Assembly: GCA_022826825.1 (NCBI GenBank)
Contig: JAJDUD010000027.1
Span: forward strand, 1,050-65,049
Reading direction: 5' to 3'
Source of the DNA: Acidobacteriota bacterium
Lineage (GTDB): Bacteria > Acidobacteriota > Vicinamibacteria > Marinacidobacterales > Marinacidobacteraceae
Length of the DNA stretch: 64,000 nucleotides
Shown piece after piece: positions 43,027 through 59,834 of this stretch (its first letter is position 1; the number at the start of each line of letters is the position of its first letter). A program made the translations under genes and the position numbers. The notes beneath the pieces were generated by a model. That model had not been told where the DNA came from. It worked only from the letters and a program-made list of their open reading frames with translations, and did not search any database.

Positions 43027-43200
43027 CGATGGCCTCCATACGGACGGGTTGCACCGAGCCATCGCTGATGACGATGGCCTCCCCGGTCGTCCGGCATCGT
43101 CCCGCGCCGTGGACAGGGGTTGAGCAACGCCTGTGCGTGCATCGACTGGATTGACGAAATAGACGGAATAGACGATAATCTGCCTAACGAGGCCAACAGG

Positions 43201-43818
43201 ATGAAGAACACGGTCATCGAAGCAGGGGAAGATCCAATTGGGGCGCTGGAAGGTGTGGTGCATGCGGCCGCTCGCCATCTGAGCGCCCGCCACATCGCCG
43301 CACTGGCGCAACATCCGGAAGCCGTGAGATCCGCATTGGCGGCGGTAGCGGCCACCTTGGCGACCGAGGGAGCGCCGGTGCCCACTGGGGAGGTCGAGAC
43401 GATCAGGGGCGAGGCGCCCAATCTGATCAGCGCTGCGGAGGGGGCTCGACGTCTGGATGCCATCACCCAACCCGGACCGAGTGAAGACGTGCTGAGTTCC
43501 GACGAGCTTGCCGCCCGCATGGGCTTCAAGACCCGTCAGTCAGTCCACAACCAACGCATCAAGGGCAGGATCGTGGGCTGGCAGACCGTTCGGCGGGGTT
43601 TCGTCTTTCCGGCCGGGCAGCTCGACGAACGGGGCAGGCCTCCGGCGGGATTGGAGCGCGTCGTGCCGCATTTCGCCGACGGATACTCCGCGTGGATGTG
43701 GCTTCAATCGCCGCAACCGGCGCTGGATGGGGCCGCGCCACTCGATGTGTTGAGGCGGGGGCACGCGGAATCGGTCGCAGCCGCCGCGCGAGGAGAAACG
43801 CAAGGCGACTTCATGTGA
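43201..43818 (+). CDS. Xre/MbcA/ParS-family antitoxin (DUF2384 toxin-binding domain), partner of the RES toxin
   Basis: The C-terminal motif AWMWLQSPQPALDGAAPLDVLRRGHAESV matches the ParS/MbcA pattern (W...P.LGG..P.DLL). The start is uncertain and alternatives exist at 43120. The stop overlaps the toxin GTG as GTGA. Confidence 0.6.
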   Translation: MKNTVIEAGEDPIGALEGVVHAAARHLSARHIAALAQHPEAVRSALAAVAATLATEGAPVPTGEVETIRGEAPNLISAAEGARRLDAITQPGPSEDVLSSDELAARMGFKTRQSVHNQRIKGRIVGWQTVRRGFVFPAGQLDERGRPPAGLERVVPHFADGYSAWMWLQSPQPALDGAAPLDVLRRGHAESVAAAARGETQGDFM

Positions 43819-44408
43819 CCTCCGGGTACGACGCATCGGGCATTCGCGATTGTGTCCGTCCCTTCCAGTTTGAGCGGATGATTCGCCTGATTTCTCGGGT
43901 TCATCGGGAGAGTCCGCTGGGAGTTGTGCCGACGCCCAGTCGTTTCAGTGATCCCCGCGGGAGCTACGCGGTTCTCTATGCCGCGGCGTCCTTGCGCTGC
44001 GCGTTCTGGGAAACGATCGCGCGGGGCCGGTTCACGCGGCGCAAGCGTCGGGAAATGCGGCGTCAGGATATAGAGACCAAACTCGTCGTGTGGCTGTGTT
44101 CCACGGAGCCGCTCGCACTCGTGGATCTGCGCGCCGACGGTCCCGTCAGGATGGGTGCTCCGACCGCAGTAATTCATGATGCCCATCATGCGGCCGGCCG
44201 GGCGCTCTCGGCCGTGGTTTACGGCGACTTGCCGGACGTGGACGGCATTCTGTATCCCTCGCGCTTCACGACGGAGACGTGTGTGGCGGTATTCGACCGG
44301 GCGATCCACAAACTGCAAGCGACGGATGCCGCGCCCCTGATGGCCCTGTCAGCCCTCGGGGAAGTGCTGTCCGACTACGAGATCACCCTTACGAACCCAC
44401 CGGCTTGA
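43815..44408 (+). CDS. RES-domain toxin (ParT/MbcT-like NAD+-targeting toxin family)
   Basis: 197 aa from GTG. The RES signature is RFSDPRGSYAVLYAAASLRCAFWETIAR ... DGILYPSRF (Arg, Glu, Ser). It overlaps the antitoxin stop by 4 bp. Confidence 0.7.
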   Translation: MTSGYDASGIRDCVRPFQFERMIRLISRVHRESPLGVVPTPSRFSDPRGSYAVLYAAASLRCAFWETIARGRFTRRKRREMRRQDIETKLVVWLCSTEPLALVDLRADGPVRMGAPTAVIHDAHHAAGRALSAVVYGDLPDVDGILYPSRFTTETCVAVFDRAIHKLQATDAAPLMALSALGEVLSDYEITLTNPPA

Positions 44409-44611
44409 CCGGGTTCCACCACACGCGCAAGGCTGCTCAACCAGATTCCCGACCCCTCTGGGAGAGCCGGCCAATGTTCCGACCAACGTCACACGGACGG
44501 ACGGTCCGCCGTTTACGGAGTTGGCCGACCGGCAGAACCGGCGGAGAGGGCAGCCGCCACGCGTCTCGATCAGGAAGGGCGCGGTACTCCCCGGATCAGA
44601 CCGGCACTGCC

Positions 44612-45550
44612 TCACCGGCTGCGCGGCTCGCCCCGGAAGACCTCGCGCCGGTGCCAGGCCACGAAGGCGGCATCAGGCAGGTGCGCGGACTCCTGGGGAG
44701 CCCGGAGAGGCCGTCCGCGCGCGTCCACGAGCTGGTGGTAGGCATCGCTCACGCCTGTCAATTCGTTCGACACGAGCAGGACGAATCCTGCACTGCTCCC
44801 ACCTTCGAGCCCGATGGCGCCCCGATCGAGAGCGCGATGATGCAGCGTGCAAAGCGCCAGCCCGTTGGGCACCCGGTCCGGTCCGCCGGCGGCGTGCCAC
44901 TTGATGTGCGCGGCGTCGAGCCCGAGGAGATCGTCGTTGAGCCGGACGTCAAAGTCGCAGATGGCGCAACGGCGCTCGTAGGCGGTGAGGACGCGGCGGC
45001 GGAAATCGGGGTCCCGCCTCCGCGGCTTGACCGTCTTCTCGCCGTACAGTGTCATGGCCTCAAGCGCCATCGATTCTGGAAGTCCGACTGCATCCCGGAT
45101 GGAGGCATGCGAGGACTCCGGGAAGTTCTGGACCAGCAAGCGGGCTGCTGCGGTCTCGACGAGTTCCGCGTCGCCGCGCAGCAGGCGATCCAGATACGGC
45201 GGAAACCCGCCCCTTACACCCCGCTGTCGAAGCGGGGTCACGCGAAGGGTCCCTGCGGATGTTGTCGGAAGCGTTTCGACCCTTGGGATTTCCCAAAGGT
45301 CATCGCCGACTAATCGGCCAAACGGATCTTCCGGATGGAGGCTGCTTCTCCGTGGCCCGTAATGGACAAGCAGGTCTTTGAGTTTCGGTTCGATTTCGTC
45401 CGAGTAGCTGGCGAGGCGCGGTTTTCGTTGCGCGATCCGGCCGAGCGCGAGCAGCAAGAGTAGCGGCTTGTGCGGAGCCCGCCGCCCCCCGCGCTTCCAC
45501 ACCTTGAGGTTGTCTTTGTCGAGCGCTCGGAGGAACTCGTGCCCGGTCAT
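44612..45550 (-). CDS. HNH_2-type endonuclease with an N-terminal putative DNA-recognition domain, co-directional and apparently co-transcribed with dndA
   Basis: 312 aa. The HNH_2 motif is CAICDFDVRLNDDLLGLDAAHIKWHAAGGPDRVPNGLALCTLHHRALDRGAIGL. It starts 34 bp after the dndA stop on the same strand. Confidence 0.6.
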   Translation of the reverse strand: MTGHEFLRALDKDNLKVWKRGGRRAPHKPLLLLLALGRIAQRKPRLASYSDEIEPKLKDLLVHYGPRRSSLHPEDPFGRLVGDDLWEIPRVETLPTTSAGTLRVTPLRQRGVRGGFPPYLDRLLRGDAELVETAAARLLVQNFPESSHASIRDAVGLPESMALEAMTLYGEKTVKPRRRDPDFRRRVLTAYERRCAICDFDVRLNDDLLGLDAAHIKWHAAGGPDRVPNGLALCTLHHRALDRGAIGLEGGSSAGFVLLVSNELTGVSDAYHQLVDARGRPLRAPQESAHLPDAAFVAWHRREVFRGEPRSR

Positions 45551-45583
45551 CGGTTCTCCGTCCGGCTGGACGTGACACCGATG

Positions 45584-46714
45584 TTACAGAAGTGACGTGA
45601 TCCGGTTGGTCACGGCCTCCCAGTCAACCGGACCTGTCAAATGCGACCAGGAAATGCGAAGAGCCCCTCGGATTTGCTCTTTCGACAGTCCCATCGCCTC
45701 GAGGACATGGCTTGGTGTGTAGCTCTGCGAGGTGCACGCTGACCCGTTCGAGATCGCAATCAGGTCCTTGACGGCCACGATTACGGCTTCGCCGTCCAAC
45801 CCTGGAAATGACAGGTTCACGGTGTGCGCACTGGTCCGGTCCGGATCGCCGTGGATCACCGGCTCAAGCGGTGCTAACCCGCGCATGGTCTCCTCCCGGA
45901 ACGCAAGACACCTGGCCTTTCGCACCCCCGCCTCCTTCGCCCCCAGCTCCGCCGCCAGACCCAGCCCGGCGATCAGGTGAACCGGGAGCGTCCCGGGCCG
46001 TAGGCCACGCTCCTGCCCTCCGCCGAAGAACAACGGGCTAAGTGAAGGTCGCCGGAAACGTCGCCGGCGGGCCACCAGGGCCCCCACCCCTTTCGGCCCG
46101 TAGACCTTGTGGCCGCTTACGCTGATCAGGTCAATCCGGGAGTCCTGCAAGGCGTCCAACTCCTTTCCGAACCCCTGGGCGGCGTCCACATGGAAGTACG
46201 CGGGGTGATCCGCCAGAACCGCCGCCACCTTCTCTACCGGCTGGATCACCCCGGTTTCGTTGTTCACGTGCATGACGGAGACGAGCAAGGTGTCGTCTCG
46301 CAACGCCTCGGCGACCGCCTCTGGATGCACCCAACCGGATGGCCCGCAGGGCAGGCGGACGACCTTGAAACCCCTCTCTTCGAGGACCTCCAAGGGCTCC
46401 AACACGGCCTTGTGCTCGATCTGCGTGGTGATAACGTGGCGACGCCCCGAGCGTCGTCCCTCGCCTTCCAACCCGAGGATCGTCAGGTTGTTGGACTCGG
46501 TGGCGCCCGACGTGAACAGCACCTCATCTGGTTGCGCCTGCACGACCCCGGCGACCTGCGCCCGGGCGTGCTGGACGGCCCGTTTCGCCCGTACGCCGTA
46601 GTCATGCGTCCGGGATCCGGCGTTCCCGAACTCCGGGTCCAGGTACTGGATCACGAGATCGCGCACCCGAGGCTCGATTGGAGTGGTGGCGTTGCAATCG
46701 AGGTAGGCGGTCAC
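45584..46714 (-). CDS. dndA: Cysteine desulfurase (IscS/NifS family), positioned as DndA
   Basis: 376 aa. It has class-V aminotransferase motifs (SGHKVYGPKG PLP-lysine, catalytic SACTS). It is transcribed divergently from dndBCDE, as in canonical dnd loci. Confidence 0.75.
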   Translation of the reverse strand: MTAYLDCNATTPIEPRVRDLVIQYLDPEFGNAGSRTHDYGVRAKRAVQHARAQVAGVVQAQPDEVLFTSGATESNNLTILGLEGEGRRSGRRHVITTQIEHKAVLEPLEVLEERGFKVVRLPCGPSGWVHPEAVAEALRDDTLLVSVMHVNNETGVIQPVEKVAAVLADHPAYFHVDAAQGFGKELDALQDSRIDLISVSGHKVYGPKGVGALVARRRRFRRPSLSPLFFGGGQERGLRPGTLPVHLIAGLGLAAELGAKEAGVRKARCLAFREETMRGLAPLEPVIHGDPDRTSAHTVNLSFPGLDGEAVIVAVKDLIAISNGSACTSQSYTPSHVLEAMGLSKEQIRGALRISWSHLTGPVDWEAVTNRITSLL

Positions 46715-46826
46715 GGAAGCAGGCTAACACCCGGTCTAGACCACTTTCGCCCCAGTTTGCGTGTATGCAATGTACTTGACAAACAATGGTACAATACAAA
46801 CAAACTGCGATCAGCCGGAGGTCCCT
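46715..46826. promoter_or_regulatory. Divergent dndA/dndB intergenic region, AT-rich for this genome, with TTGACA at 46776-46781 and a GGAGG ribosome-binding site at 46816-46820
   Basis: The lower GC content and the TTGACA hexamer are visible in the sequence. In characterised systems DndB binds this intergenic region. No confident -10 element was assigned. Confidence 0.3.
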
Positions 46827-47957
46827 ATGCTCGCCAGTTCCACTCGCACGCCCCAGGCGACTGAGCCGACTTTCGGATACAGCTTCCCGGCGATCCGGGG
46901 AGTGCAGGCGGGACGTGAGTACTACGTCTCGATGTGCCCACTCCGGTTCGTCCCCAAGGTCTTCCTGTTCAACGAAGCTGAGCTCGTTCCAGGCCTGCGC
47001 GCCCAGCGGGTCCTGAATCGCGCAAGGTTGCCGGAACTCACCAACTACATCCTCGCGAACCGCGAGAGCTACTGCTTTTCGGCGCTCACGGCATCCTTGG
47101 ATGGGCCCGTGAGGTTCGAACCGCTCTCGAATGGGACGGAGCCGGGACGGATCGGAACGCTTCACGTCCACATGGATACGCGGTTTCTCATCAACGATGG
47201 ACAGCATCGGCGGGCGGCCATCGAGAACGCTCTGCGCGAGGATCCGGATCTCGCCGACGACAGCATCGCGATCGTCTTTTTCCTGGATCGGGGGCTGGAG
47301 CGATCGCAGCAGATGTTCGCGGACCTGAACCGCCACGCCGTGCGGCCTTCGAAGTCGCTCGGAGTCCTCTACGACCATCGAGATGAACGGGCGTATTTGG
47401 TCCGCTTGGTCGTTGAGCGATTCCCGCTCTTCCAGGACGTGGTGGAACAGGAGCGGACGACCCTTTCGGCACGTTCTCGCAAGCTGTTCACCCTGAGCGC
47501 GATCTATACGGCCACCAACGCTCTCACCACGGGGCACGGCGACCTCTCGCTGGAGGAACGTGTGGAGTACGCCGTCCGCTTCTGGCAGGTGGTGAGCAAG
47601 CAGTTCCCGGACTGGCGAAAGGTGCAAGAGCGGAAGCTGACCGCGGGAGAGATCCGGAGAGATTTCATCCATTCCCACGGGATCACTCTCCAGGCGCTCG
47701 GGCGGATCGGTAACGGCCTCTTTCGCGAGGAGGCGTACGGACCCAAGCTGCGGCCCCTGCGTGACGTTGACTGGTCTCGGTCCAACGCCGAATTGTGGGA
47801 AGGCAGGGCGCTGAGCGCAGGGCGGGTTTCCAAGTCCGGAAACAGCGTCGTCCTGACCACGAACCTCCTCAAGCAGAAGCTCGGACTGCCCCTCACGACG
47901 GAAGAGCAGCGGGTAGAGCGCGCCTTCGAGCGCGGCCGCAAGAAGAAGAATGGCTAA
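46827..47957 (+). CDS. dndB: DNA sulfur modification protein DndB (DGQHR domain)
   Basis: 376 aa. It contains the DGQHR motif (FLINDGQHRRAAIE) and the DndB-typical QMFADLNRHAVRPS segment. Confidence 0.85.
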   Translation: MLASSTRTPQATEPTFGYSFPAIRGVQAGREYYVSMCPLRFVPKVFLFNEAELVPGLRAQRVLNRARLPELTNYILANRESYCFSALTASLDGPVRFEPLSNGTEPGRIGTLHVHMDTRFLINDGQHRRAAIENALREDPDLADDSIAIVFFLDRGLERSQQMFADLNRHAVRPSKSLGVLYDHRDERAYLVRLVVERFPLFQDVVEQERTTLSARSRKLFTLSAIYTATNALTTGHGDLSLEERVEYAVRFWQVVSKQFPDWRKVQERKLTAGEIRRDFIHSHGITLQALGRIGNGLFREEAYGPKLRPLRDVDWSRSNAELWEGRALSAGRVSKSGNSVVLTTNLLKQKLGLPLTTEEQRVERAFERGRKKKNG

Positions 47958-49467
47958 TCGGCTCGCCGGCCTTCCGTCCGTGTTCCAGGAGGACGGCATC
48001 GGTGAGACCCTGCGTCAGCACAAGCACTTCGTCCAGCAGTTGTATCTGGAGGATGAAGTCCCGTGGGTCGTGGGCTACAGCGGGGGGAAAGACTCCACCG
48101 CGACCCTGCAACTCGTCTGGCTTGCGATTGCGGAACTCGACGAGTCCCAGCGCCAAAAGCCCGTCCACGTCATCAGCACCGACACGCTCGTCGAGAACCC
48201 CATCGTTGCGGCGTGGGTGACCCATTCGCTCGACAAGATCAACGAAGCCGCAAAGGCGTCTTCCCTTCCGTTCGTTGCTCACCGCCTGACCCCCGAGGTG
48301 GAGGACACCTTTTGGGTCAACCTGATCGGGAAGGGCTATCCGGCGCCCCGTCACAAGTTCCGCTGGTGCACGGAACGGCTCAAGATCAAGCCCTCGAACC
48401 GGTTCATTCGCAATGTCGTGCGCCGGAACGGGGAAGCGATTCTGGTCCTCGGTACTCGGAAGGCGGAGAGCGCCAAGCGCGCTTCCACGATGAAGAAACT
48501 GGAAGAACATAGGGTCCGCGACCGATTGAGCCCGAACGCCAGTCTCCCCGGATGCCTCGTGCTGTCGCCCCTAGAGGACTGGTCGAACGACGACGTGTGG
48601 CTTTTCCTCATGCAGGTGGACAACCCTTGGGGCTACCGCAACAAGGATCTCCTCACGATGTACCAAGGAGCTTCGGAGGACGGCGAGTGCCCACTGGTGG
48701 TCGATACCTCGACGCCCAGTTGTGGGGACAGCCGGTTCGGTTGCTGGGTGTGCACGCTCGTCGACAAGGACCGGTCCATGACCGCGATGATCCAGAACGA
48801 CGAGGAAAAGGAATGGATGCTGCCGCTGCTGGAACTCCGGAACGAACTCGACACGCCCAATGACCGGCCGCTCCGGGACTTCCGCCGGATGACCGGGGCG
48901 GTCCAGCTCTTTCACGACCGTCCCATCCCCGGCCCCTACACGCAGAAAGCACGCGAGACGTGGCTGCGTCGCGTGCTCCAGGCCCAGCGCTGGGTCCGGG
49001 AGAACGGCCCCAAGGACGTAAGGTCAATCGAACTCATCACCGCCGCCGAACTTGCAGAGATTCGGCGGATCTGGGTCGTGGAGAAACACGAGATCGAGGA
49101 TCTGTTGCCCGGGATTTACGAGGAGGAAACCGGCGAGCCGTATCCAGACGCCGCAAGCAGAAACGACAGCCCTCTCGGGCCCGAAGGGCTGGAAGCGCTC
49201 AAACAGGTCTGTGGCGACGACTCGCTCCACTACGAGTTGACGCGCAATCTCCTGTCGCTCGAGTGGCAGTATCGAACTCATCTCAAGCGGAGGGGGCTTC
49301 TCGACCGAATCGAGGCGATGGTGCGCCGCGGGTATTACGAGAGCGCCGACGACGCGACGGATTACGCGCGGAAACGGAAGCACGCGCTGGACGCCGCCCG
49401 GGAACTTGCAGCGCGCGAGATCGACGAGGCTCCCCGTTACGCGAAGCCTTCCTTGTTCGAGGTCTGA
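47950..49467 (+). CDS. dndC: DNA phosphorothioation protein DndC (PAPS-reductase-like ATP pyrophosphatase)
   Basis: 505 aa. It has the PP-loop SGGKDST and conserved Cys (CGDSRFGCWVCT). It overlaps the dndB stop by 8 bp. Confidence 0.85.
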   Translation: MANRLAGLPSVFQEDGIGETLRQHKHFVQQLYLEDEVPWVVGYSGGKDSTATLQLVWLAIAELDESQRQKPVHVISTDTLVENPIVAAWVTHSLDKINEAAKASSLPFVAHRLTPEVEDTFWVNLIGKGYPAPRHKFRWCTERLKIKPSNRFIRNVVRRNGEAILVLGTRKAESAKRASTMKKLEEHRVRDRLSPNASLPGCLVLSPLEDWSNDDVWLFLMQVDNPWGYRNKDLLTMYQGASEDGECPLVVDTSTPSCGDSRFGCWVCTLVDKDRSMTAMIQNDEEKEWMLPLLELRNELDTPNDRPLRDFRRMTGAVQLFHDRPIPGPYTQKARETWLRRVLQAQRWVRENGPKDVRSIELITAAELAEIRRIWVVEKHEIEDLLPGIYEEETGEPYPDAASRNDSPLGPEGLEALKQVCGDDSLHYELTRNLLSLEWQYRTHLKRRGLLDRIEAMVRRGYYESADDATDYARKRKHALDAARELAAREIDEAPRYAKPSLFEV

Positions 49468-49489
49468 TGGCCGTGCGGCAGGTCGGGTC

Positions 49490-51466
49490 GTGATTCTCGA
49501 CGAACTCGTTCTCGAGAATTTCGGAGTTTTTCGCGGACGGAACGTCCTGTCACTCACCCCGCCGTCGCGTCGAAAGCCCCTTGTGGTCGTGGGAGGGTTG
49601 AACGGTGCCGGGAAAACTACCCTTCTTGATGCCGTGCAACTGGCCCTCTTCGGGAAGCGCGCACCGTGTGTTGACGGAAACGGCGGCGGCTACAACGGCT
49701 ACCTGAGGGGGCTCATTCACCGGGGTGTTCGGTCTTCCACGGGCGCGAGTCTGGAACTCTCCTTTCGGCATCGGGACGCAAGTTCCGAGCACCGCTACCG
49801 GGTCCGCCGCCACTGGCGCAGCAGGTTTCGCACGGTCCAGGAGAAAGTCGAAGTCCTCCGCGACGACCACCCTCACCGAACGCTCTCCGAACGCTGGGTG
49901 GAATCCGTGGAACAGTTCATCCCGCTCGGGATTGCCCGTTTGGTGTTCTTCGACGGGGAGAAGATTGAGGCGCTCGCGGACCCCAGCACCTCGTCCGAGG
50001 CGCTACGAGCCGGTGTGAACGCGCTCCTCGGGCTAGGCATCGTCGAACGCCTCGGTGCCGACCTGATGGTCTACGAACGACGTAGCAAGAGCAGGCTGAT
50101 CCGGGGTTCGGACCAAACCGCGGTGAAGGCTGCGGAGCTTGAACTCAAACGGCTCGAAAGAGAACGGAAGTCGTGGGCAAACGAACGCGGTTCCCGCCAG
50201 AACGTGCTCGACCAAGCCCGCAAGCGCGTCGAGCAATGTGAAGCCCGGTTCCGCGCGGAGGGCGGCGACCTCTACGAGCGGCGGAAAGAGCTCGAAGAGG
50301 AGCGTGACGCGTGTCACCGGAGAGTGCGCGAGGCGGAAGATGGACTCCGAGACCAAGCGACCACGCTCGCTCCCTTCCTGCTCGTCGAGGACGTGATCTC
50401 GGCTGCGGCTGACCGAGCGGACGAAGAGTGGACGGCGGTCGAAGCCCAGCGGACCCACGAGGTGCTGTCCACGCGAGACCGGAAGATGTTGAAGGCGCTA
50501 CGCGGAAGAAAATGCAACGCGCGGCTCGTTGAAGAACTGGACGATCTGTTCCGCCGCGATCGAGAGGAGAGGAAATCGGCAACGAGGATTGAGGTTCTGC
50601 TGGGTGCATCCGACTTCACCCGTCACGAATTGCGGCGACTCAGCAGCGGTGGGCTGTCCGTGTTTCGGTCTTCCCTGGCGGAGACCAGAAGAGCCCTGCT
50701 CGAGGCACAGGCTGAATTCGAAGAGGCCGAAAGGACGCTCAGCATGGTCCCGGTCGGCGAATCGGTGAAGGCACTGATCGAGGATCGTGATGACGCCCGC
50801 CGGGCGGCGATTCGGGCGGAACAGGAGTTGGGCGAGGCCAAGTCCGCAGTGGACCGGATCGACCATGCCAGGGAACGACAGCGGGCGCGGTACGAACGCT
50901 TGCTTGCCGAGGCTGCGGAACAGTCATTGGAGATCGATGACATACAGCGCGCGCTCCATCATTCGGGACGCGTCCGCGACACATTGGATCGTTTCCGGTC
51001 CACTCTTCTGGACCGCAGTTGCCAACACATCGCCTCGCTGGTGCAGGAAGGCTTCCAGCACTTGCTCAGGAAGAAGGCGCTGATCACCGGAGTCGAACTG
51101 GACCCGGAACAGCTGGTGCTTGCGCTGCGGGGACCGGACGGCCGCAATCTCCCATCGGAGCGGCTGTCCGCGGGAGAACGCCAACTTCTGGCCGTCGCGA
51201 TCCTTTGGGCCCTAGCGCGTGCTTGCGGTCGGCCGCTGCCCCACATCGTGGACACTCCGCTCGGACGGCTGGACTCGACCCACCGTGACCACATCGTGCG
51301 GCGTTACTTCCCGAGCGCGAGCCACCAGGTAATCCTGCTTTCCACGGATGAGGAGATCACGCCGCCGTACTGGGAGAGGATCCACCGCCATGTCGGCCAC
51401 GCTTACACGTTGGTCCACGACGATCAGAGGGGCGCGACTTCGATTCGCGAGGGGTACTTCTGGTGA
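49490..51466 (+). CDS. dndD: DNA sulfur modification protein DndD (SMC-like ABC ATPase)
   Basis: 658 aa from GTG. Walker A is GLNGAGKTTLLDAVQLALFGK. It has a long coiled coil. The C-terminus carries the signature and Walker B motifs (LSAGERQLLAVAIL ... PHIVDTPLGRLD). Confidence 0.85.
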   Translation: MILDELVLENFGVFRGRNVLSLTPPSRRKPLVVVGGLNGAGKTTLLDAVQLALFGKRAPCVDGNGGGYNGYLRGLIHRGVRSSTGASLELSFRHRDASSEHRYRVRRHWRSRFRTVQEKVEVLRDDHPHRTLSERWVESVEQFIPLGIARLVFFDGEKIEALADPSTSSEALRAGVNALLGLGIVERLGADLMVYERRSKSRLIRGSDQTAVKAAELELKRLERERKSWANERGSRQNVLDQARKRVEQCEARFRAEGGDLYERRKELEEERDACHRRVREAEDGLRDQATTLAPFLLVEDVISAAADRADEEWTAVEAQRTHEVLSTRDRKMLKALRGRKCNARLVEELDDLFRRDREERKSATRIEVLLGASDFTRHELRRLSSGGLSVFRSSLAETRRALLEAQAEFEEAERTLSMVPVGESVKALIEDRDDARRAAIRAEQELGEAKSAVDRIDHARERQRARYERLLAEAAEQSLEIDDIQRALHHSGRVRDTLDRFRSTLLDRSCQHIASLVQEGFQHLLRKKALITGVELDPEQLVLALRGPDGRNLPSERLSAGERQLLAVAILWALARACGRPLPHIVDTPLGRLDSTHRDHIVRRYFPSASHQVILLSTDEEITPPYWERIHRHVGHAYTLVHDDQRGATSIREGYFW

Positions 51467-51882
51467 AACACCACTTTGCCCCGTTGGAGCGGATCCGTGT
51501 CTCCAAGAGGGCGCAGGACCAACTCGTGACGCTGCGTCGGCGGACGGGACTCCGCCAATGGAACTGGGTGTGCCGGTGGGCGTTCTGTCGGTCCATCGCC
51601 GAGCCCTCGAAGCCGCCGATGGTCCCGGTACCATCGGACAGCAACCTCGAAATGGCTTGGCAGGTGTTCGGAGGCGAGCACGAAGACATCTATGCGGCGA
51701 TCCTGCGGCAGCGGTGCATTCAGGATGGACTGGGGACGGACACTGAGACACTGGCAACCCAGTTCCGGCTGCATCTCCATCGGGGGATCGGATACCTCGT
51801 TGGCGACCAGTACATCCGGAGCATCGGCGAGTTAATCGGTAGCGTCGTGCCGTCCGATTCGGAGCGCCTTCTGCTGCGTTGA
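51463..51882 (+). CDS. dndE: DNA sulfur modification protein DndE
   Basis: 139 aa. It matches the conserved DndE pattern (RIRVSKRAQDQLVTLRRRTGLRQWNWVCRWAFCRSIAEP). It overlaps the dndD stop as GTGA. Confidence 0.8.
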   Translation: MKHHFAPLERIRVSKRAQDQLVTLRRRTGLRQWNWVCRWAFCRSIAEPSKPPMVPVPSDSNLEMAWQVFGGEHEDIYAAILRQRCIQDGLGTDTETLATQFRLHLHRGIGYLVGDQYIRSIGELIGSVVPSDSERLLLR

Positions 51883-53345
51883 GGGGCATCGAGCGCCATC
51901 GCACTGCGCTGCACCGAACCGAGCTGTCGCGACCGGTTCGGCTTGCACTCAACGATGGGGTCCTAGCGCGCGGCAAGAGTTTCTTCGACTATGGGTGCGG
52001 GCGTGGTGCGGACGTTCGCTATCTGGTTCGACGCGGATTTGATGCGGATGGCTGGGATCCGGTGCATCGCCCGGGGGACAGGTGCGCGGCTGACGTGGTG
52101 AATCTTGGATACGTAGCCAACGTCATCGAGGATCCCGATGAGCGGCTTGCCACTCTGCAGGACGCGTGGCGGCTCGCGCGCGAGGTTCTGGTTGTGGCGG
52201 CGAGGCTCGATGTCGATCGGCGCCATTGGCTCGGACCGAACTTGGGCGATGGGACCCTCACGCGGCTGGGAACTTTCCAGAAGTACTTCGCCCAGGACGA
52301 GTTGACCGAGTGGGTCAACGAGGCCACCGGGGAGGCGGCACTCGCGGCCGCGCCGGGTGTTCTCTACGTATTCCGGGACGCGGTTCGGCGAGAGACCTTC
52401 GCGGCAGCCCGATTCAGGTCCCGGGGGCGGCAGCTATCGATCGCCGCCTCCGTTGATCTCTATCGCGAGAACAGTGAGGCGTTGGATGGGCTCATGGAGT
52501 TCCACTGTGATCGCGGCCGGTTGCCCCGGACCGAAGAGTTCCCGCAATCTGATTCCCTCGTGAGTGCCTTCGGCAGCGTGCGACGGGCCGCGCGGTTCCT
52601 GCGCGGCCTCGTCGGAGCACGGCGATGGGACGATGCGCGCCGAGAGCGCTCGGCCGATCTGCTGGTCTATCTCGCGCTAGCTCGGTTTCGCGGCAGACCG
52701 CGGCTCTCAGAGCTGCCCCAAGCGCTCCAACTGGATATCCGGTCGCTGTTCTCGACTTACAAATTTGCCTGCTCGACAGCAGACACTCTGCTGTTTCGCG
52801 CCGGCGACGCCGAAGCGATCGACAAGTCCTGCCGCGACTCACCGGTCGGCAAGATCACACCAACAGCCTTTTACGTGCACGAATCCGCACTGTCACGCCT
52901 AGCGCCGGTACTTCGCGTCTACGAGGGCTGCGCTCGGAGCTACCTCGGAGCCGTGGAGGATGCCAACATCATCAAGCTCTATCGTACCCAGTCCAAGGTC
53001 TCCTATCTTGAGTATCCCGATTTTGACAACGATCCCCATCCGGAGCTTCACCGGTCCGTCAACATCTGCCTCCGGTCATTCAAAGTGAAGGTGCGTTGCT
53101 ACGAGAGCAACAGACCTGTTCTGCACAGAAAGGAGCTGTTCGTGGATCCGTCGTATCCGCGGCGATCGGTGTTCGCCCGTTTGTCAGCGCAGGAGGAGCG
53201 GCATGGGTTGTATTCGCATCCTTCGGCAATTGGGCGACGTCAGGATTGGGACAAGTATTTGACAGCTGCCGGCCTCGGGCACCGTGGCCATCGATTGGTC
53301 GGAGCCAAGTCCTCACGTCCTTCCATTGCCAACATCCCGGCCTAA
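51879..53345 (+). CDS. dnd-associated putative SAM-dependent methyltransferase, translationally coupled to dndE
   Basis: 488 aa from a TTG start that overlaps the dndE stop. The SAM motif I-like segment is FFDYGCGRGADV. Its size and position match the putative methyltransferases that accompany dnd clusters. Confidence 0.55.
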   Translation: MRGIERHRTALHRTELSRPVRLALNDGVLARGKSFFDYGCGRGADVRYLVRRGFDADGWDPVHRPGDRCAADVVNLGYVANVIEDPDERLATLQDAWRLAREVLVVAARLDVDRRHWLGPNLGDGTLTRLGTFQKYFAQDELTEWVNEATGEAALAAAPGVLYVFRDAVRRETFAAARFRSRGRQLSIAASVDLYRENSEALDGLMEFHCDRGRLPRTEEFPQSDSLVSAFGSVRRAARFLRGLVGARRWDDARRERSADLLVYLALARFRGRPRLSELPQALQLDIRSLFSTYKFACSTADTLLFRAGDAEAIDKSCRDSPVGKITPTAFYVHESALSRLAPVLRVYEGCARSYLGAVEDANIIKLYRTQSKVSYLEYPDFDNDPHPELHRSVNICLRSFKVKVRCYESNRPVLHRKELFVDPSYPRRSVFARLSAQEERHGLYSHPSAIGRRQDWDKYLTAAGLGHRGHRLVGAKSSRPSIANIPA

Positions 53346-53548: not shown

Positions 53549-54034
53549 TCAGATCGCCTGCTCCCCCTCCGCCCGTCCAACCGTCCCAAGAGTTGCCTCC
53601 ACGCGAAGACGGAATATCCTGAGAAACGTATCCAATGTGCGTGGTTTGTCGTCAAACCACTCCTGTAGAACATCGAATCCTCCGTGGGCGTACTTGTTGA
53701 ATTCACGGACAGCCTCATCGCTCAAATAGCTCTGCGAGAGAGGATCCACGAGATTCGCCAGGGTCTCCCGCACAGCGGTCCTTTCTTCCAAATCCACGTT
53801 CAGGTAGTCGAGCTCCCGCCGTAGAAATAAAGCTACCAACAATCGGCCCCGCTTCTTGTACTCGCCAGGGTAGTAGTCCACAAGCTGTGCAGTTTCGCCC
53901 ACGTTCATCGACCTCTTGCGCTTCGTGGCGATTCCCGCCATAAGACAGAAGTAGTACGCGTCGAAGTCGATGTCCAGGTCAACGCGAATTTCCTCAAACC
54001 ACTTCCGAGCATCCCTCCTGATATAGAAATCCAT
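53549..54034 (-). CDS. Hypothetical protein; last gene of the low-GC four-gene operon
   Basis: 161 aa with no recognisable motif. It starts 6 bp after the upstream SMC-like gene on the same strand. Its GC content is ~55% against ~70% locally. Confidence 0.4.
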   Translation of the reverse strand: MDFYIRRDARKWFEEIRVDLDIDFDAYYFCLMAGIATKRKRSMNVGETAQLVDYYPGEYKKRGRLLVALFLRRELDYLNVDLEERTAVRETLANLVDPLSQSYLSDEAVREFNKYAHGGFDVLQEWFDDKPRTLDTFLRIFRLRVEATLGTVGRAEGEQAI

Positions 54035-54039
54035 ATCAT

Positions 54040-56031
54040 CTACTCCGTATTGTGCTGAAATGTTTCGAAGAAGCCTTCGTCCGTAACAACCATCCCGTCG
54101 TCGGTCACGGTACAGCCCTGACTCGCTAGTGCCGTATTTTCGTAGTCCGTCGCACCTTTCCGGAACAACGTGAGCAATCGGACACTGCCGCGTCCGGACC
54201 GAACCACACTCGGCACAAACTCGTTCCTCTCAGACGAAATAACGAACGCAACAAACTGGTCCGTAAGTAGCGGTACCAATTCGCCGATCTTCGGACGCAC
54301 CGCCAGATCGATCGGAATTGCCGGACTGTCAACAATAAAGGGCAAGCGATGCTGATCTGCCCTTCCCAAGAGCGTGGACAAGAACGCATAACCGATAGAG
54401 AGCGTCTCTCCTGCGCTGCCTCCCTCCTGATCCCTCAGCTTCAAGCAGCCATCGATTCTCTCCACACGAATGTCGTTGTGAGGCATCAACGCGCCAATTC
54501 GATCGTTCGTATCTTCGCAAATTGCATCCGTAATGGCTGTTCTAGCCTTGACCATCGCGGATTCTAGAACGCGAATCAACAAGTCTCGCTTCTGGCTCAA
54601 GCCTCGACTCTTGGTGACCTCTTCAACAGCACGCGTCAGGCGTTCAATGCCGTCACTTACGGTCTCTATCGAGAACACACGTTCAATGTCGACCGTCGAC
54701 GGCTGATCCAAGCGGACCATTTCGTCCCTATCGTTATAGGCCTTGAGTCGCTCGGTAATGGTCTCACGCTGAATTTTTAGGCGCCCAATTTGCTGCCCTA
54801 GGTCTCGCAGAACGTGATCTGGTTCCTCCACCTTCCGGGCAACGATGTCGCGTTGAGTCTTCGCCTGTTGCAGTGCGCGCGACTCATGATCGAGTTTCGC
54901 CACACGACGAGACACTAGTGCGGCAGGCGCCTGGCGTGAATCCCCAACGACATCCGCGATCTGTGACTTCATTGCGTTAAGCACGCTTACGTTGTCACTG
55001 CTGAGATAGGAGCGGGCGCGCGACTGAATTGCACGACGAACGTCCGCGTCGATAGAGCGACCGCAAACACACTCGCTCTCGGCCGCCAAGTCCTCGAAGA
55101 ATTCGCGCGCCGCGCTTTCTGGGAGTTTCGTATTATCAAGCGTTTCACGGAGCTCGAAAACGAGGTCCGCAAATCCCTCGGCTAACGCGTGTGGGTCGCG
55201 CATTTGTTCGAGAAGACTGCGCGAACTAGCATGAACGTTGTCGTTGAGTTGGGTGACCAACTGTTCGGCCTCACTAACGTCACGTTGGCGACCCCTATCC
55301 TGACTCAATTGGACGTCGTACTGTTCCTCTGCCCGACGCAGCGATTCCTGGACTGAGGAAAGCTCAGCATCCCAATGTTCCCTCTCGTGGTATAGCTTTT
55401 CGCGACGCTCCTTCCAGCGGCGCAATAGGTTAGTGCGGCGACTGTGGCCGCGCTGTTCACGTGCTCCTACATGCTGTGTCTGCCGTTCCCAGTACGACTC
55501 GATTGGACGCTCCATGTCACGAAAGATATTGAGCTGAAAGAGGCTCTCAACGGCAGTCTCGGCGTGTGTGTACTTTGGTTGGAGCAGGCGGTCTGCGAGT
55601 TCCCCGTCAAACACATAGAAATCGACGAACGCTTTGTTCATGAATCGCTTGACGCCGACGGGCGGATCGAAGCCCGCCTTCTGTCCGGCACCCCACGTGG
55701 TCTTGTATCCAACAGAACCCGTGTCGAAGTCAAAGTTCATGAGGATGGTGAGCCGCTTATCGTCGACCTGTAGACCTACCTCAAATAGTGCCGGACCATC
55801 CGATCCATTCTTTTTCGCCATGGCCCGCACAGCGTCCGGCGTCCAGTCACTAGCGGCACCGGAAAGCGCAGCCCGGAGAAGTGTCAGGGTAGTGGTTTTC
55901 CCCGTGCCATTAGGCATCTGGATTAGACAAACCGCGGCAGCGCTACCGTCGTTAAGCCGGCAATTCACTTCATGGTCCGGACAGCGAAGGCCCTTAGCCC
56001 GCCAGCCAAGTATGCGCAGGTTTGTAGTCAC
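54040..56031 (-). CDS. DndD-like / SMC-like ABC ATPase, a paralog of dndD
   Basis: 663 aa. N-terminal Walker A is CLIQMPNGTGKTTTLTLLRAAL. It has a central coiled coil. The C-terminal segment HRLPFIVDSPAIPIDL...FVAFVISSERNEF parallels DndD PLPHIVDTPLGRLD...QVILLSTDEEI. Confidence 0.6.
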   Translation of the reverse strand: MTTNLRILGWRAKGLRCPDHEVNCRLNDGSAAAVCLIQMPNGTGKTTTLTLLRAALSGAASDWTPDAVRAMAKKNGSDGPALFEVGLQVDDKRLTILMNFDFDTGSVGYKTTWGAGQKAGFDPPVGVKRFMNKAFVDFYVFDGELADRLLQPKYTHAETAVESLFQLNIFRDMERPIESYWERQTQHVGAREQRGHSRRTNLLRRWKERREKLYHEREHWDAELSSVQESLRRAEEQYDVQLSQDRGRQRDVSEAEQLVTQLNDNVHASSRSLLEQMRDPHALAEGFADLVFELRETLDNTKLPESAAREFFEDLAAESECVCGRSIDADVRRAIQSRARSYLSSDNVSVLNAMKSQIADVVGDSRQAPAALVSRRVAKLDHESRALQQAKTQRDIVARKVEEPDHVLRDLGQQIGRLKIQRETITERLKAYNDRDEMVRLDQPSTVDIERVFSIETVSDGIERLTRAVEEVTKSRGLSQKRDLLIRVLESAMVKARTAITDAICEDTNDRIGALMPHNDIRVERIDGCLKLRDQEGGSAGETLSIGYAFLSTLLGRADQHRLPFIVDSPAIPIDLAVRPKIGELVPLLTDQFVAFVISSERNEFVPSVVRSGRGSVRLLTLFRKGATDYENTALASQGCTVTDDGMVVTDEGFFETFQHNTE

Positions 56032-56033
56032 GG

Positions 56034-56297
56034 CTACGAATCAAGGCCGGCAGACGCGGCGGCGCCTTCGGCGTTAGAGCCAGGAGCGTCTCCTGACTCG
56101 TTTGGGGACCCTTCCGGTTCCAGGCGCACTTCCTTGTAAGCGAGATCAAGATGACGACGTGATGCGTCCAGGTCGTGGATATCCTCGGCGCCCGAAGCGA
56201 CGGCGGTAAACCAACCGATAAGCCTCCTGGCAAGTGCGGAACTTTGGCCGTGCTCTCTCGCAGCTTCGTGAATAGCGGTGCGGATTCGGGGATCCAT
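56034..56297 (-). CDS. Hypothetical 87-aa protein between the PLD-helicase and the DndD-like ATPase
   Basis: It lies 3 bp from the downstream gene and 13 bp from the upstream gene. It has no recognisable motif. Confidence 0.35.
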   Translation of the reverse strand: MDPRIRTAIHEAAREHGQSSALARRLIGWFTAVASGAEDIHDLDASRRHLDLAYKEVRLEPEGSPNESGDAPGSNAEGAAASAGLDS

Positions 56298-56309
56298 GGT
56301 TTAGGTGTC

Positions 56310-58580: not shown

Positions 58581-59834
58581 ATGCCCCGTTTCGAGCGCAG
58601 CCAGGTCGCCGCCCTGGCAAACCGCCTCCGCGAGACGCCCCGCCGGATCGTGGCGGTGTTCGGGCCCCGACAGACGGGCAAGACCACCATCATCCGGCAG
58701 GCGCTAGTCCGCTGCGGGATGCCGTTCCGCTACATCGCGGTGGACGAGCCGGACCCTTCGCCCGGGCGCCGCCCGGGGCGGGACGCGCCGCGGACGGATC
58801 CGTTCCCGGCCGCGATGCGGGACGAACGCTGGCTTGTGCAGTGCTGGGAGACCGCGCGCGAGGAAGCCGCGGCGGGCCGGGGCTTCGTGCTGGCGCTCGA
58901 CGAGATCCAGAAGGTCCCCCGTTGGTCGGAGGTAGTCAAGGGACTCTGGGACGCGGACCGGCTCGCCGACCGTGCCCTGCGGGTCGTGATCGCCGGATCG
59001 AGTCCGATGACGATGCAGCAGGGCCTGAACGAGAGCCTGGCCGGGCGTTTCGAGACGATGCCGGTGGCGCAGTGGTCGTTCCCGGAGATTGCCGCGGCCT
59101 TCGGTTTCGACATCGACCGCTACGTCTTCTACGGCGGCTACCCCGGCGCGGCGCCGCACGCCGGAACCCCTCCGGAGTGGCGCGACTACGTGCGCCGCTC
59201 GATCGCGGACGCGAGCGTCGAGCGCGACGTGCTGGCGATGACCCGGGTGGACCGGCCGGCGCTGCTGACGCGCCTCTTCCGGCTCGCCTGTCAGATGTCG
59301 GGGCAGATGGTCGCCTACAACAAGATGCTCGGCCAGCTCCGGGACGCGGGCAACACGACCACGCTCGCCCGCTATCTCGACCTGCTGGGCCGCGTCGGAC
59401 TGGTCGCCGGACTCGCGCGCTACGCGGGGCCGCTGTCCGACCGGGCGGCCAGCCCCAAGCTGAATGTCCTCGACACCTCTCTGATGACCGCGGCGTCCGG
59501 TTACACCTTCGAGGAGGCGGAGGCGGACCGCACCTTCTGGGGCCGGGTCGTCGAGACCGCCGTGGGGGCGCACCTCGTCAACACCGGTGGGATCGGCCTC
59601 CGCGTCCACTACTGGCGGGACGACGCGCACGAAGTGGACTTCGTGATCGAACGCGGGCCGAAGCTGGCGGCGATCGAGGTCAAGACCGGACGCGACCGGT
59701 CGAGCGGCCGCGGCCTCGCGGCGTTCCAGCAGCGCTACGAGCACGCCCGCACGGTCCTCGTGGGGCCGGGAGGCGTTTCCCTGGCGGATTTCCTCGGCCA
59801 ACCCGCCACGTACTGGGTGGCGCCGGACGAATGA
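58581..59834 (+). CDS. AAA-family ATPase with a DUF4143 C-terminal domain (AAA_14/DUF4143 family)
   Basis: 417 aa. Walker A is FGPRQTGKTT, Walker B is LALDEIQ. The DUF4143-like tail reads HYWRDDAHEVDFVIERGPKLAAIEVK. Its stop overlaps the start of the next gene as ATGA. Confidence 0.7.
   Translation: MPRFERSQVAALANRLRETPRRIVAVFGPRQTGKTTIIRQALVRCGMPFRYIAVDEPDPSPGRRPGRDAPRTDPFPAAMRDERWLVQCWETAREEAAAGRGFVLALDEIQKVPRWSEVVKGLWDADRLADRALRVVIAGSSPMTMQQGLNESLAGRFETMPVAQWSFPEIAAAFGFDIDRYVFYGGYPGAAPHAGTPPEWRDYVRRSIADASVERDVLAMTRVDRPALLTRLFRLACQMSGQMVAYNKMLGQLRDAGNTTTLARYLDLLGRVGLVAGLARYAGPLSDRAASPKLNVLDTSLMTAASGYTFEEAEADRTFWGRVVETAVGAHLVNTGGIGLRVHYWRDDAHEVDFVIERGPKLAAIEVKTGRDRSSGRGLAAFQQRYEHARTVLVGPGGVSLADFLGQPATYWVAPDE

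What the first reader, a model, noticed from the sequence alone, without database searches (positions are those of the whole stretch)
44612..46714. HNH_2 endonuclease apparently co-transcribed downstream of dndA
The 312-aa HNH_2 protein starts 34 bp after dndA on the same strand. Its motif reads LDAAHIKWHAAGGPDRVPNGLALCTLHHRALDRGAIGL. In canonical dnd loci dndA stands alone. A nuclease fused into the dndA transcription unit suggests that restriction activity is coupled to the expression of the modification genes. Its N-terminal ~200 aa may be a modification-reading domain.
Basis: inference. Interest (0 to 1): 0.6.

Follow-up and report, generated by a model that had tools for sequence, protein, structure and literature searches.

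The report
Sulfur-reading nuclease beside dndA
The gene after dndA encodes a known type of nuclease that reads sulfur-modified (phosphorothioate) DNA and normally cuts it; its position next to the genes that write that mark is a strain-specific island junction, not a conserved operon, and related strains show the pairing is unstable.

Summary
A 312-aa ORF (44612-45550, minus strand) starts 33 nt after the dndA stop codon. It has a GGAG ribosome-binding site, and the scan found no terminator in the gap.

The protein belongs to a known family. It has an N-terminal sulfur-binding domain (SBD) like those of ScoMcrA and SprMcrA, plus an HNH_2 nuclease. It matches NCBIfam NF045808, "phosphorothioated DNA-binding restriction endonuclease", at 288 bits against a cutoff of 180. 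However, characterised members of this family cut phosphorothioate (PT)-modified DNA, so it is not a classical partner of Dnd. A four-gene pbe-like module (53549-58193) is the likelier cognate restriction module.

Six relatives carry the same dndA/dndBCDE-methyltransferase module. Their homology to the window ends inside the dndA stop codon, and a different gene follows in each. dndA→SBD-HNH occurs only in contigs about 98% identical to the window, and those contigs have lost dnd genes by two different deletions while keeping the nuclease intact.

Across phyla, 13 of 110 homologous loci lie near dnd genes, scattered over the tree. This matches the rare, unresolved cases already reported in the literature.

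Verdict: a new member of a known kind, in a probably transient and conflict-prone arrangement.

The parts
44612..45550 (-). SBD-HNH gene (312 aa), predicted phosphorothioate-dependent restriction endonuclease
   Evidence: NF045808 at 288 bits against a cutoff of 180, matching the protein over residues 13-306. Homologues carry PF26340 DNA-SBD_ScoMcrA plus PF13391. AF2 model pLDDT is 84.6. Plasmid homologues are annotated 'phosphorothioated DNA-binding restriction endonuclease'.
45068..45514 (-). Sulfur-binding domain (residues ~13-161). Pocket residues are H27, K28, P76 and R79, with lid position D75.
   Evidence: phmmer against ScoMcrA 5zmm/5zmo gives E 3e-9 to 1e-8 over residues 20-161. Foldseek gives 5zmo E 6e-8 with TM(target) 0.80, SprMcrA 7cc9/7ccj 0.74-0.75, and Hga 8h0l. 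Residue mapping follows the alignment and PMC6224610.
44807..44968 (-). HNH_2 nuclease core (residues 195-248) with C195, C198, H215, N229, C234, H237 and H238
   Evidence: Pfam PF13391, E 6e-9. These residues are invariant in all 110 aligned homologues.
45551..45583 (-). 33-nt dndA/SBD-HNH spacer with GGAG at 45556-45559. It lies just outside the edge of the conserved dnd module.
   Evidence: Sequence. No terminator or promoter hit in the gap. Homology of L136 and L138 to the window stops at 45585, inside the dndA stop codon.
45584..46714 (-). dndA cysteine desulfurase
   Evidence: TIGR03235 at 497 bits against a cutoff of 480. PADLOC DndA/SspA.
46715..46826 (.). Divergent dndA/dndB control region. 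It is A+T-rich and holds a direct repeat (46772-46786 and 46789-46803) and an inverted repeat (46753-46766 and 46794-46807).
   Evidence: The likely dndB ATG at 46827, preceded by GGAGG, was read from the sequence.
46761..53345 (+). dndB (46761/46827-47957), dndC (47950-49467), dndD (49406-51466), dndE (51463-51882) and a dnd-associated methyltransferase (51879-53345)
   Evidence: The TIGR03233, TIGR03183, TIGR03185, TIGR03184 and TIGR04096 matches are all full-length and above their cutoffs.
53549..58193 (-). pbe-like four-gene module: PbeA (56310-58193), an 87-aa ORF (56034-56297), a PbeC/DndD-like ATPase (54040-56031) and a 161-aa ORF (53549-54034). This is the likelier cognate restriction module.
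   Evidence: PADLOC PbeA at 843 bits and weak PbeC hits. TIGR04095 at 164 bits, below its cutoff. ORFs. Gene GC is 0.54-0.56.
43120..44408 (+). Xre-like antitoxin and RES toxin pair, convergent on the SBD-HNH 3' end
   Evidence: Pfam RES E 9e-17 and Xre_MbcA_ParS_C, below cutoff. GC 0.645.
58581..59834 (+). AAA_14/DUF4143 ATPase (PADLOC PDC-S01). It has core-like GC and marks the far edge of the dnd-pbe insertion.
   Evidence: It is 91% aa identical in L081, which lacks dnd.

Best explanation
The ORF encodes a stand-alone phosphorothioate (PT)-dependent restriction endonuclease of the EcoWI/SprMcrA class. Its N-terminal sulfur-binding domain is expected to hold the Rp sulfur of a PT linkage in a hydrophobic pocket (H27, K28, P76). 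The C-terminal zinc-stabilised HNH domain is then expected to cut DNA nearby. This mechanism is inferred from the family; only membership of the family is shown here.

In this genome the gene sits immediately outside the dndA end of a horizontally acquired dndA/dndBCDE-methyltransferase plus pbe-like island, in a variable defence hotspot. With a 33-nt gap, its own ribosome-binding site and no terminator, it is probably transcribed by read-through from the dndA promoter. That coupling is a by-product of a strain-specific junction, not a conserved operon.

A PT-cutting enzyme and a PT-writing system are expected to clash. Coexistence here therefore needs either a nuclease whose sequence context differs from the host's PT motif or a nuclease of low activity. 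Loss of dnd genes in near-identical strains suggests the combination is unstable.
For: Family membership:
- NF045808 scores 288 bits against a cutoff of 180.
- The SBD matches ScoMcrA by sequence and ScoMcrA, SprMcrA and Hga by fold.
- Pocket residues H27, K28 and P76 and all HNH/Zn residues are conserved.
- Plasmid homologues carry this product name.

The adjacency is a junction, not an operon:
- The same dnd module (about 80% nt identity) in L136 and L138 aligns to the window only as far as 45585, inside the dndA stop codon.
- dndA is followed by different genes in L136, L138, L139, L140, L142 and L144.
- The closest SBD-HNH homologues (64-66% identity; L133, L002, L081) lie at the same chromosomal hotspot without dndA upstream. 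In L133 and L002 the preceding gene is a DUF4143 ATPase that overlaps the nuclease start by 4 nt.

Instability:
- L134 and L135 (98% identical) lack window 46252-61821 but keep an intact nuclease, with 11 synonymous and 6 non-synonymous codon differences.
- L137 (97.6%) lacks 50666-57392, which removes the dndD C-terminus, dndE, the methyltransferase and most of the pbe module.
- L141 and L143 keep only dndC and dndA beside an intact SBD-HNH.
- All five dnd loci with no SBD-HNH within 10 kb are intact.

Literature: SBD-HNH enzymes restrict dnd+ DNA, and fewer than 3.6% sit near dnd clusters, left as unresolved cases (PMC7461809).
Against: - Across phyla, 13 of 110 full-length homologous loci have dndB, C, D or E or the dnd-associated methyltransferase within about 10 kb, at nine or more separate places on the tree. 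That is far more than random placement would give.
- One distant acidobacterial locus (L050) repeats the dndA→SBD-HNH layout. One lineage (L088, L092, L118-L120) has a tight dndCDEA-MT-x-y-SBD-HNH string.
- In the window both the nuclease and all dnd genes look intact, so stable coexistence is possible there.
- The degraded-versus-intact contrast is 3 of 5 against 0 of 5 lineages (one-sided Fisher about 0.08). Two of the degraded assemblies have only about 4x coverage.
- No biochemical or transcript data exist for this protein.
Confidence: 0.62

Rival explanations
1. The nuclease is a true partner of Dnd. Its SBD reads host PT as a 'self' mark that holds the HNH nuclease off or releases it, so that unmodified phage DNA is cut. 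This would resemble the PT-sensing effectors DndI and SspE, and co-transcription with dndA would keep reader and writer in step.
For: - The association with dnd genes recurs independently (13 of 110 loci).
- There is a tight operon-like string in L118-L120, L088 and L092, and the same dndA→SBD-HNH order in L050.
- Pocket and catalytic residues are intact in the window.
- The gap is 33 nt with no terminator.
- PT-sensing nucleases paired with DndBCDE or SspABCD have precedents (PMC11662687, PMC9646914).
Against: - The same dnd module lacks this gene in six relatives.
- The closest homologues work in dnd-free contexts.
- Every characterised SBD-HNH cuts PT-DNA and restricts dnd+ plasmids (PMC7461809, PMC6224610, PMC7470945).
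- Sister strains lose dnd but keep the nuclease.
- There is no homology to DndI, SspE or DndFGH.
- The island already carries a pbe-like module.
Confidence: 0.13
2. The nuclease is an attenuated or specificity-shifted relic that no longer acts on the host's PT sites. It is tolerated next to dnd, either because its PT binding is weak or because it is poorly expressed after being separated from its usual upstream ATPase partner.
For: - The lid residue Y164 of ScoMcrA is Asp here (D75). The loop aligned with the ScoMcrA base-contacting loop (TTSAGTLRV) has lost the Lys/Arg residues seen in the nearest homologues (KKKGGRSV).
- Other dnd-linked homologues carry pocket substitutions never seen in 97 unlinked ones: P76→A with H27→N in L050, and P76→S in L069.
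- The dnd-linked enzyme Bsp48385I had only residual activity (PMC7461809).
- In relatives the gene is translationally coupled to a DUF4143 ATPase that is absent upstream here.
Against: - H27, K28, P76 and all HNH residues are intact.
- The lid position varies across active family members (PMC6224610).
- Codon differences from the 98% sister copy are mostly synonymous (11 against 6).
- Loop 34 is positively charged (R67, R68), a feature linked to stronger and broader PT binding in SprMcrA (PMC7470945; inference from the alignment).
Confidence: 0.2

Closest known systems
EcoWI / Bsp305I / Ksp11411I-type SBD-HNH PT-dependent restriction endonucleases (NCBIfam NF045808; Lutz et al. 2020, PMC7461809)
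   Same: The two-domain plan (N-terminal SBD, C-terminal HNH_2) and the size of about 300 aa are the same. The full-length HMM match is above the cutoff, and the HK and P pocket residues are conserved.
   Different: Identity to annotated plasmid members is only 34-40%. The gene lies 33 nt downstream of dndA beside an apparently intact dnd cluster, which that paper found rare (<3.6%) and left unresolved. Specificity and activity are untested.
SprMcrA (Streptomyces pristinaespiralis; PDB 7CC9, 7CCD, 7CCJ)
   Same: SBD plus HNH without an SRA domain. The SBD folds match at TM(target) 0.68-0.75. Loop 34 is positively charged (inference from the alignment and PMC7470945).
   Different: No sequence-level hit by phmmer. 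The base-contacting loop differs.
ScoMcrA (Streptomyces coelicolor; PDB 5ZMM, 5ZMO)
   Same: The SBD is homologous (E about 1e-8, TM(target) 0.80), with equivalents of H116, R117(K) and P165. The C-terminal HNH is weakly similar.
   Different: ScoMcrA has an extra head and an SRA-like domain (561 aa). Its lid residue Y164 is Asp here, and its SRGRR loop is not conserved.
Bsp48385I, the one characterised SBD-HNH located next to dndBCDEA-dndFGH (PMC7461809)
   Same: A PT-reader nuclease encoded beside a complete dnd cluster, on a probable mobile element.
   Different: Its neighbouring restriction module is dndFGH, whereas here it is pbe-like.
DndI and SspE, PT-sensing effectors of Dnd/Ssp defence (PMC11662687, PMC9646914)
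   Same: They are nucleases that read host PT and are encoded with the PT writers. They are functional analogues only under the rival reading.
   Different: There is no sequence or domain relationship: they are DUF262/NTPase-type proteins, and PADLOC gave no such hits. They are conserved partners of their modification genes, unlike this gene.

Membership tests
SBD-HNH PT-dependent restriction endonuclease (NF045808) | Full-length match to the curated family model above its cutoff | tested here: met
   288.3 bits against a cutoff of 180; protein residues 13-306 on model positions 8-284 of 284.
SBD-HNH PT-dependent restriction endonuclease (NF045808) | N-terminal sulfur-binding domain fold | tested here: met
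   phmmer against 5zmm/5zmo gives E 3e-9 to 1e-8. The AF2 model (pLDDT 84.6) hits 5zmo at E 6e-8 with TMt 0.80, and also SprMcrA and Hga SBDs. Homologues carry PF26340.
SBD-HNH PT-dependent restriction endonuclease (NF045808) | Sulfur-pocket residues equivalent to ScoMcrA H116, R117 (Lys in most homologues) and P165 | tested here: met
   These are H27, K28 and P76. P76 is invariant and H27 and K28 nearly invariant in alignment A1 and across 110 loci. The mapping follows and PMC6224610.
SBD-HNH PT-dependent restriction endonuclease (NF045808) | Aromatic or hydrophobic lid residue (ScoMcrA Y164) | tested here: inconclusive
   The window has Asp (D75). The position varies in the family (Y, F, Q, E, H, M, D) and was conserved in only 7 of 23 homologues in PMC6224610.
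SBD-HNH PT-dependent restriction endonuclease (NF045808) | Intact HNH catalytic residues (His, Asn, His) and zinc ligands | tested here: met
   C195, C198, H215, N229, C234, H237 and H238 are invariant in 110 of 110 sequences. HNH_2 E 6e-9.
SBD-HNH PT-dependent restriction endonuclease (NF045808) | Cleavage stimulated by Rp-phosphorothioate; restriction of dnd+ DNA | not testable with these tools
   This needs purified protein on PT and non-PT substrates, or transformation assays.
Cognate restriction partner of Dnd (DndFGH, PbeABCD, DndI, SspE) | Homology to a known Dnd/Ssp effector | tested here: not met
   PADLOC hits are only generic HNH and type IV REase models, with no DndF/G/H, DndI, SspE or Pbe hit.
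Cognate restriction partner of Dnd (DndFGH, PbeABCD, DndI, SspE) | Conserved linkage with the modification module across relatives | tested here: not met
   Six loci with the same dnd module lack the gene after dndA, and homology ends inside the dndA stop codon. The closest homologues are dnd-free.
dndA transcription unit | Co-transcription with dndA | not testable with these tools
   The sequence is consistent with it: same strand, 33-nt gap, an SD sequence, and no terminator or promoter hit. Transcript data are needed.

The most novel reading that the evidence does not exclude
The SBD-HNH protein may have been recruited as a PT-sensing effector of the Dnd system. Under this reading, host phosphorothioates read by the SBD mark self DNA and hold the HNH nuclease off or release it, and unmodified invader DNA is cut. 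This would be a third, structurally unrelated solution alongside SspE and DndI. It would explain why about 10% of this nuclease family sits beside dnd genes in many unrelated lineages.
Probability: 0.12. Interest if true: 0.75.

Novelty: new member of a known kind. Interest (0 to 1): 0.4.

Why it matters
PT-dependent nucleases are thought to be one reason dnd systems spread poorly, because reader-cutters and writers should exclude each other. This locus holds both, apparently intact and probably on one transcript. Its sister strains show three ways the clash may be resolved: two different deletions of dnd genes here, and pocket substitutions in other dnd-linked homologues. That makes it a natural test bed for two questions. 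The first is whether coexistence rests on non-overlapping sequence specificity. The second is whether some SBD-HNH proteins have switched from attacking PT-DNA to using PT as a self mark. If neither holds, it is an ordinary type IV enzyme caught at a mosaic defence-island junction.

Tried and rejected
- **Composition as a test of origin.** I asked whether the nuclease arrived with the dnd island. Its GC3 is 0.76, against 0.73-0.80 for the dnd genes and 0.89-0.92 for core genes. The dnd-free alleles in L133, L002 and L081 have the same GC3 (0.76-0.80), so composition cannot decide.
- **Promoter and terminator scan and RNA fold of the gap.** These found nothing distinctive. The consensus is sigma-70-type, and the host is probably an acidobacterium.
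- **DndA-like hits next to SBD-HNH at 37-43% identity** (L001, L008, L012, L065, L101-L112). I did not count these as dnd linkage, because no other dnd gene accompanies them and they may be housekeeping IscS/NifS-type genes.
- **tRNA search for an island integration site.** None was found in the window.
- **Inferring the host PT motif or the nuclease's sequence context from sequence.** I found no reliable basis. Only loop comparisons were made, and these remain inference.
- **The 1666-aa ORF 58841-63841.** It is probably an over-extended ORF. The real gene is likely the DUF8371 homologue starting near 61814.
Full report
**Observation**

The ORF at 44612-45550 (minus strand) translates to 312 aa and contains the quoted HNH motif verbatim. 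dndA is 45584-46714 on the same strand and scores 497 bits on TIGR03235 against a cutoff of 480. The gap between them is 33 nt. It carries GGAG 5 nt before the ATG. The scan found no promoter-like site in 44000-47200, and its only two terminator-like sites lie on the plus strand outside the gap. The RNA fold across the junction is unremarkable (z = -1.8). Co-transcription is plausible but not demonstrated.

**What the protein is**

- NCBIfam NF045808, "phosphorothioated DNA-binding restriction endonuclease", matches almost end to end at 288 bits against a cutoff of 180.
- Pfam finds HNH_2 at residues 195-248.
- Residues 20-161 match the sulfur-binding domain (SBD) of ScoMcrA (PDB 5ZMM, 5ZMO; E 3e-9 to 1e-8).
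- An AlphaFold model built from 43 homologues has pLDDT 84.6 and pTM 0.82. Foldseek matches it to the SBDs of ScoMcrA (TM(target) 0.80), SprMcrA (0.68-0.75) and Hga. Weaker whole-protein hits go to HNH type IV enzymes.
- Homologues in the protein database carry PF26340 (DNA-SBD_ScoMcrA) plus PF13391.
- Plasmid homologues at 34-40% identity are annotated with the same product name.

Mapping residues through the alignment onto the ScoMcrA structure paper (PMC6224610) gives the pocket residues. H116, R117 and P165 correspond to H27, K28 and P76, and all are conserved. The lid residue Y164 is Asp75, at a position that varies across the family. A168 corresponds to R79. The HNH and zinc residues (C195, C198, H215, N229, C234, H237, H238) are invariant in all 110 aligned homologues.

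It is the known phosphorothioate (PT) reader.

**Context in the window**

The gene lies at one end of a region of lowered G+C, 0.55-0.66 against about 0.70-0.72 in the flanks. In window order, the region holds:
- an Xre/RES toxin-antitoxin pair;
- the SBD-HNH gene and dndA, on the minus strand;
- dndB, dndC, dndD and dndE, diverging on the plus strand, all above their equivalog cutoffs;
- a dnd-associated methyltransferase (TIGR04096);
- a four-gene pbe-like module on the minus strand: PbeA at 843 bits in PADLOC, an 87-aa ORF, a PbeC/DndD-like ATPase and a 161-aa ORF;
- a core-like DUF4143 ATPase.

The island therefore already carries a candidate cognate restriction module. The flanking genes are 84-89% nt identical to those of Candidatus Marinacidobacterium genomes (Acidobacteriota, Vicinamibacteria).

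Characterised SBD-HNH enzymes (EcoWI, Bsp305I, Ksp11411I, SprMcrA) cut PT-modified DNA and restrict incoming dnd clusters (PMC7461809, PMC6224610, PMC7470945). They are modification-dependent type IV enzymes, not enzymes held in check by the modification. Lutz et al. predicted that such genes should avoid dnd clusters of the same specificity. They found fewer than 3.6% near dnd genes and left about 65 cases unresolved. Their proposed explanations were defective dnd, weak or inactive nucleases, or differing specificities (PMC7461809).

**Is dndA→SBD-HNH a conserved unit?**

I surveyed from both directions.

Starting from the nuclease, I examined 132 loci from genomes and metagenomes.
- Thirteen of 110 full-length homologues have dndB, C, D or E or the dnd-associated methyltransferase within about 10 kb.
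- These are scattered over at least nine places on a neighbour-joining tree and show several different arrangements.
- The arrangements include dndA→SBD-HNH (L050, next to Tn7-like tnsA and tnsB), dndCDEA-MT-x-y-SBD-HNH (L088, L092, L118-L120), dndB→SBD-HNH→MT (L023) and SBD-HNH→dndB (L091).
- The linkage is a minority pattern, yet it is far more frequent than random placement would give.

Starting from DndA, I examined the nearest relatives.
- The same dndA/dndBCDE-MT module, at about 80% nt identity, occurs in L136, L138, L139, L140 and L142, and more distantly in L144.
- For L136 and L138, nucleotide homology to the window runs from the methyltransferase to position 45585, inside the dndA stop codon, and stops there.
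- The gene after dndA differs each time: AlbA_2, a trypsin-like protease, unknown ORFs, or HARE-HTH.
- dndA followed by SBD-HNH occurs only in contigs 97.6-98% identical to the window (L134, L135, L137).

The nearest SBD-HNH homologues are only 64-66% identical, at 56-58% in the SBD and 74-75% in the HNH half.
- In L133 the gene lies at the same chromosomal hotspot without dnd. In L133 and L002 it is preceded by a DUF4143 ATPase whose stop overlaps its start.
- In L002/L136 the dnd module lies about 6 kb on the other side of the nuclease.

The adjacency in the window is therefore a lineage-specific junction at the island edge.

**Signs of conflict**

- L134 and L135 lack window 46252-61821, and the two contigs share the same junction. 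They keep a 668-nt dndA remnant and an intact nuclease. The nuclease differs from the window copy at 11 synonymous and 6 non-synonymous codons, which points roughly to purifying selection.
- L137 lacks 50666-57392. This removes the dndD C-terminus, dndE, the methyltransferase and most of the pbe module. The nuclease is 99% identical.
- L141 and L143 (the latter at 16x coverage) keep only dndC and dndA beside an intact SBD-HNH of the other allele.
- All five dnd loci with no SBD-HNH within 10 kb are intact. The window and L136 hold both genes intact.
- This gives 3 of 5 lineages degraded against 0 of 5 (one-sided Fisher about 0.08). The result is suggestive only, and two of the degraded assemblies have very low coverage.
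- The pocket proline (P76) is invariant in 97 unlinked homologues but is Ala in L050 (together with H27→N) and Ser in L069. Both are dnd-linked. The equivalent P165N substitution abolishes PT binding in ScoMcrA (PMC6224610).

**Most likely account**

Confidence in this account is about 0.6. The gene encodes an autonomous PT-dependent endonuclease. It lies just outside the dndA end of a mobile dnd-pbe island and is probably expressed by read-through from the dndA promoter. The divergent dndA/dndB control region contains repeats that could be a regulator site (inference). For the nuclease to coexist with an active Dnd system, it must have a different PT sequence context or low activity. The sister-strain deletions suggest the state is unstable. 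The steps shown are family membership, domain and residue conservation, the module boundary and the structural variants. The steps inferred are PT-dependent cleavage, read-through transcription and incompatibility.

**Rivals**

1. The nuclease is a recruited PT-sensing effector that uses host PT as a self mark, by analogy with DndI and SspE (PMC11662687, PMC9646914). The recurrent linkage and the L118-L120 operon favour this. The lack of conservation with the module, the dnd-free closest homologues and the family's known biochemistry count against it.
2. The nuclease is an attenuated or specificity-shifted relic. The D75 lid, the altered loop that aligns with ScoMcrA's base-contacting loop and the Bsp48385I precedent favour this. 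The intact pocket and catalytic residues and the mostly synonymous divergence count against it.

**Novelty**

This is a new member of a known family in an arrangement the literature has already flagged as rare and unexplained. The useful additions here are the precise module boundary, the strain-level deletion variants and the pocket substitutions confined to dnd-linked homologues.

Noticed in passing
window 53549-58193 (-): A four-gene pbe-like module (PbeA 627 aa, an 87-aa ORF, a 663-aa PbeC/DndD-like ATPase and a 161-aa ORF) has the lowest G+C in the window (0.54-0.56). It is only 48-62% aa identical to the pbe modules next to the otherwise 80%-identical dnd module in L137-L139, so the restriction module has been swapped independently of the modification genes.
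   Followed up: partly
window 51879-53345 (+): A dnd-associated putative methyltransferase (TIGR04096, 555 bits) is co-oriented directly after dndE. It recurs next to dnd in the related loci examined except L144, and in L023 and L072. In L023 the SBD-HNH gene sits between dndB and this methyltransferase. Its function was not examined here.
   Followed up: partly
window 46715-46826: The A+T-rich divergent dndA/dndB intergenic region has a 15-nt direct repeat (GTACTTGACAAACAA and GTACAATACAAACAA, 17-nt spacing) and a 14-nt inverted repeat (CAGTTTGCGTGTAT and ATACAAACAAACTG). It may be a regulator (DndB?) operator. The dndB start is more likely the ATG at 46827 than the GTG at 46761.
   Followed up: partly
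L133 8823-10927; L002 8799-10927; L141 5038-8312; L143 5719-8312: In the closest dnd-free relatives the SBD-HNH gene is the last gene of an operon with an AAA_14/DUF4143 ATPase (PADLOC PDC-S01), with a 4-nt stop/start overlap. In L141 and L143 a RelA_SpoT-like gene lies between the two. This is a possible multi-gene type IV system that I have not seen described.
   Followed up: partly
L050, L069, L072 (SBD-HNH genes): Substitutions of the sulfur-pocket proline (P76→A in L050, P76→S in L069) occur only in dnd-linked homologues (0 of 97 unlinked). H27→N occurs in L050 and L072 but also in 5 unlinked sequences.
   Followed up: partly
L050 10948-13558: In a Pyrinomonadaceae genome the dndEDCB/dndA-SBD-HNH block is followed directly by Tn7-like tnsA and tnsB, which suggests transposon-associated carriage of the pair.
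   Followed up: no
L118-L120, L088, L092: A tight same-strand string dndC-dndD-dndE-dndA, a small SAM methyltransferase, two unknown small ORFs, then SBD-HNH. It is followed on the other strand by a DndB-like gene and an MzaB-like HATPase. This is the best candidate for a true dnd/SBD-HNH operon.
   Followed up: partly
window 43120-44408 (+): An Xre-like/RES toxin-antitoxin pair with island-like G+C (0.645) converges on the 3' end of the SBD-HNH gene. It is present in the 98-99% sister contigs (complete in L137, with the 3' end of RES visible at the L134 contig end) but absent from L133, L136 and L138.
   Followed up: partly
window 58841-63841 (+) and 63887-63994 (-): The 1666-aa ORF is probably an artefact of ORF extension over the ATPase gene. 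The real gene is likely a DUF8371 homologue from about 61814. The last 108 nt of the window encode the C-terminus of a second, L002-type DUF4143 ATPase on the minus strand.
   Followed up: partly
L001 9556-9948: A fragment homologous to the HNH half of the nuclease lies directly upstream of the full SBD-HNH gene. It may be the remnant of a tandem duplication or an allele replacement.
   Followed up: no
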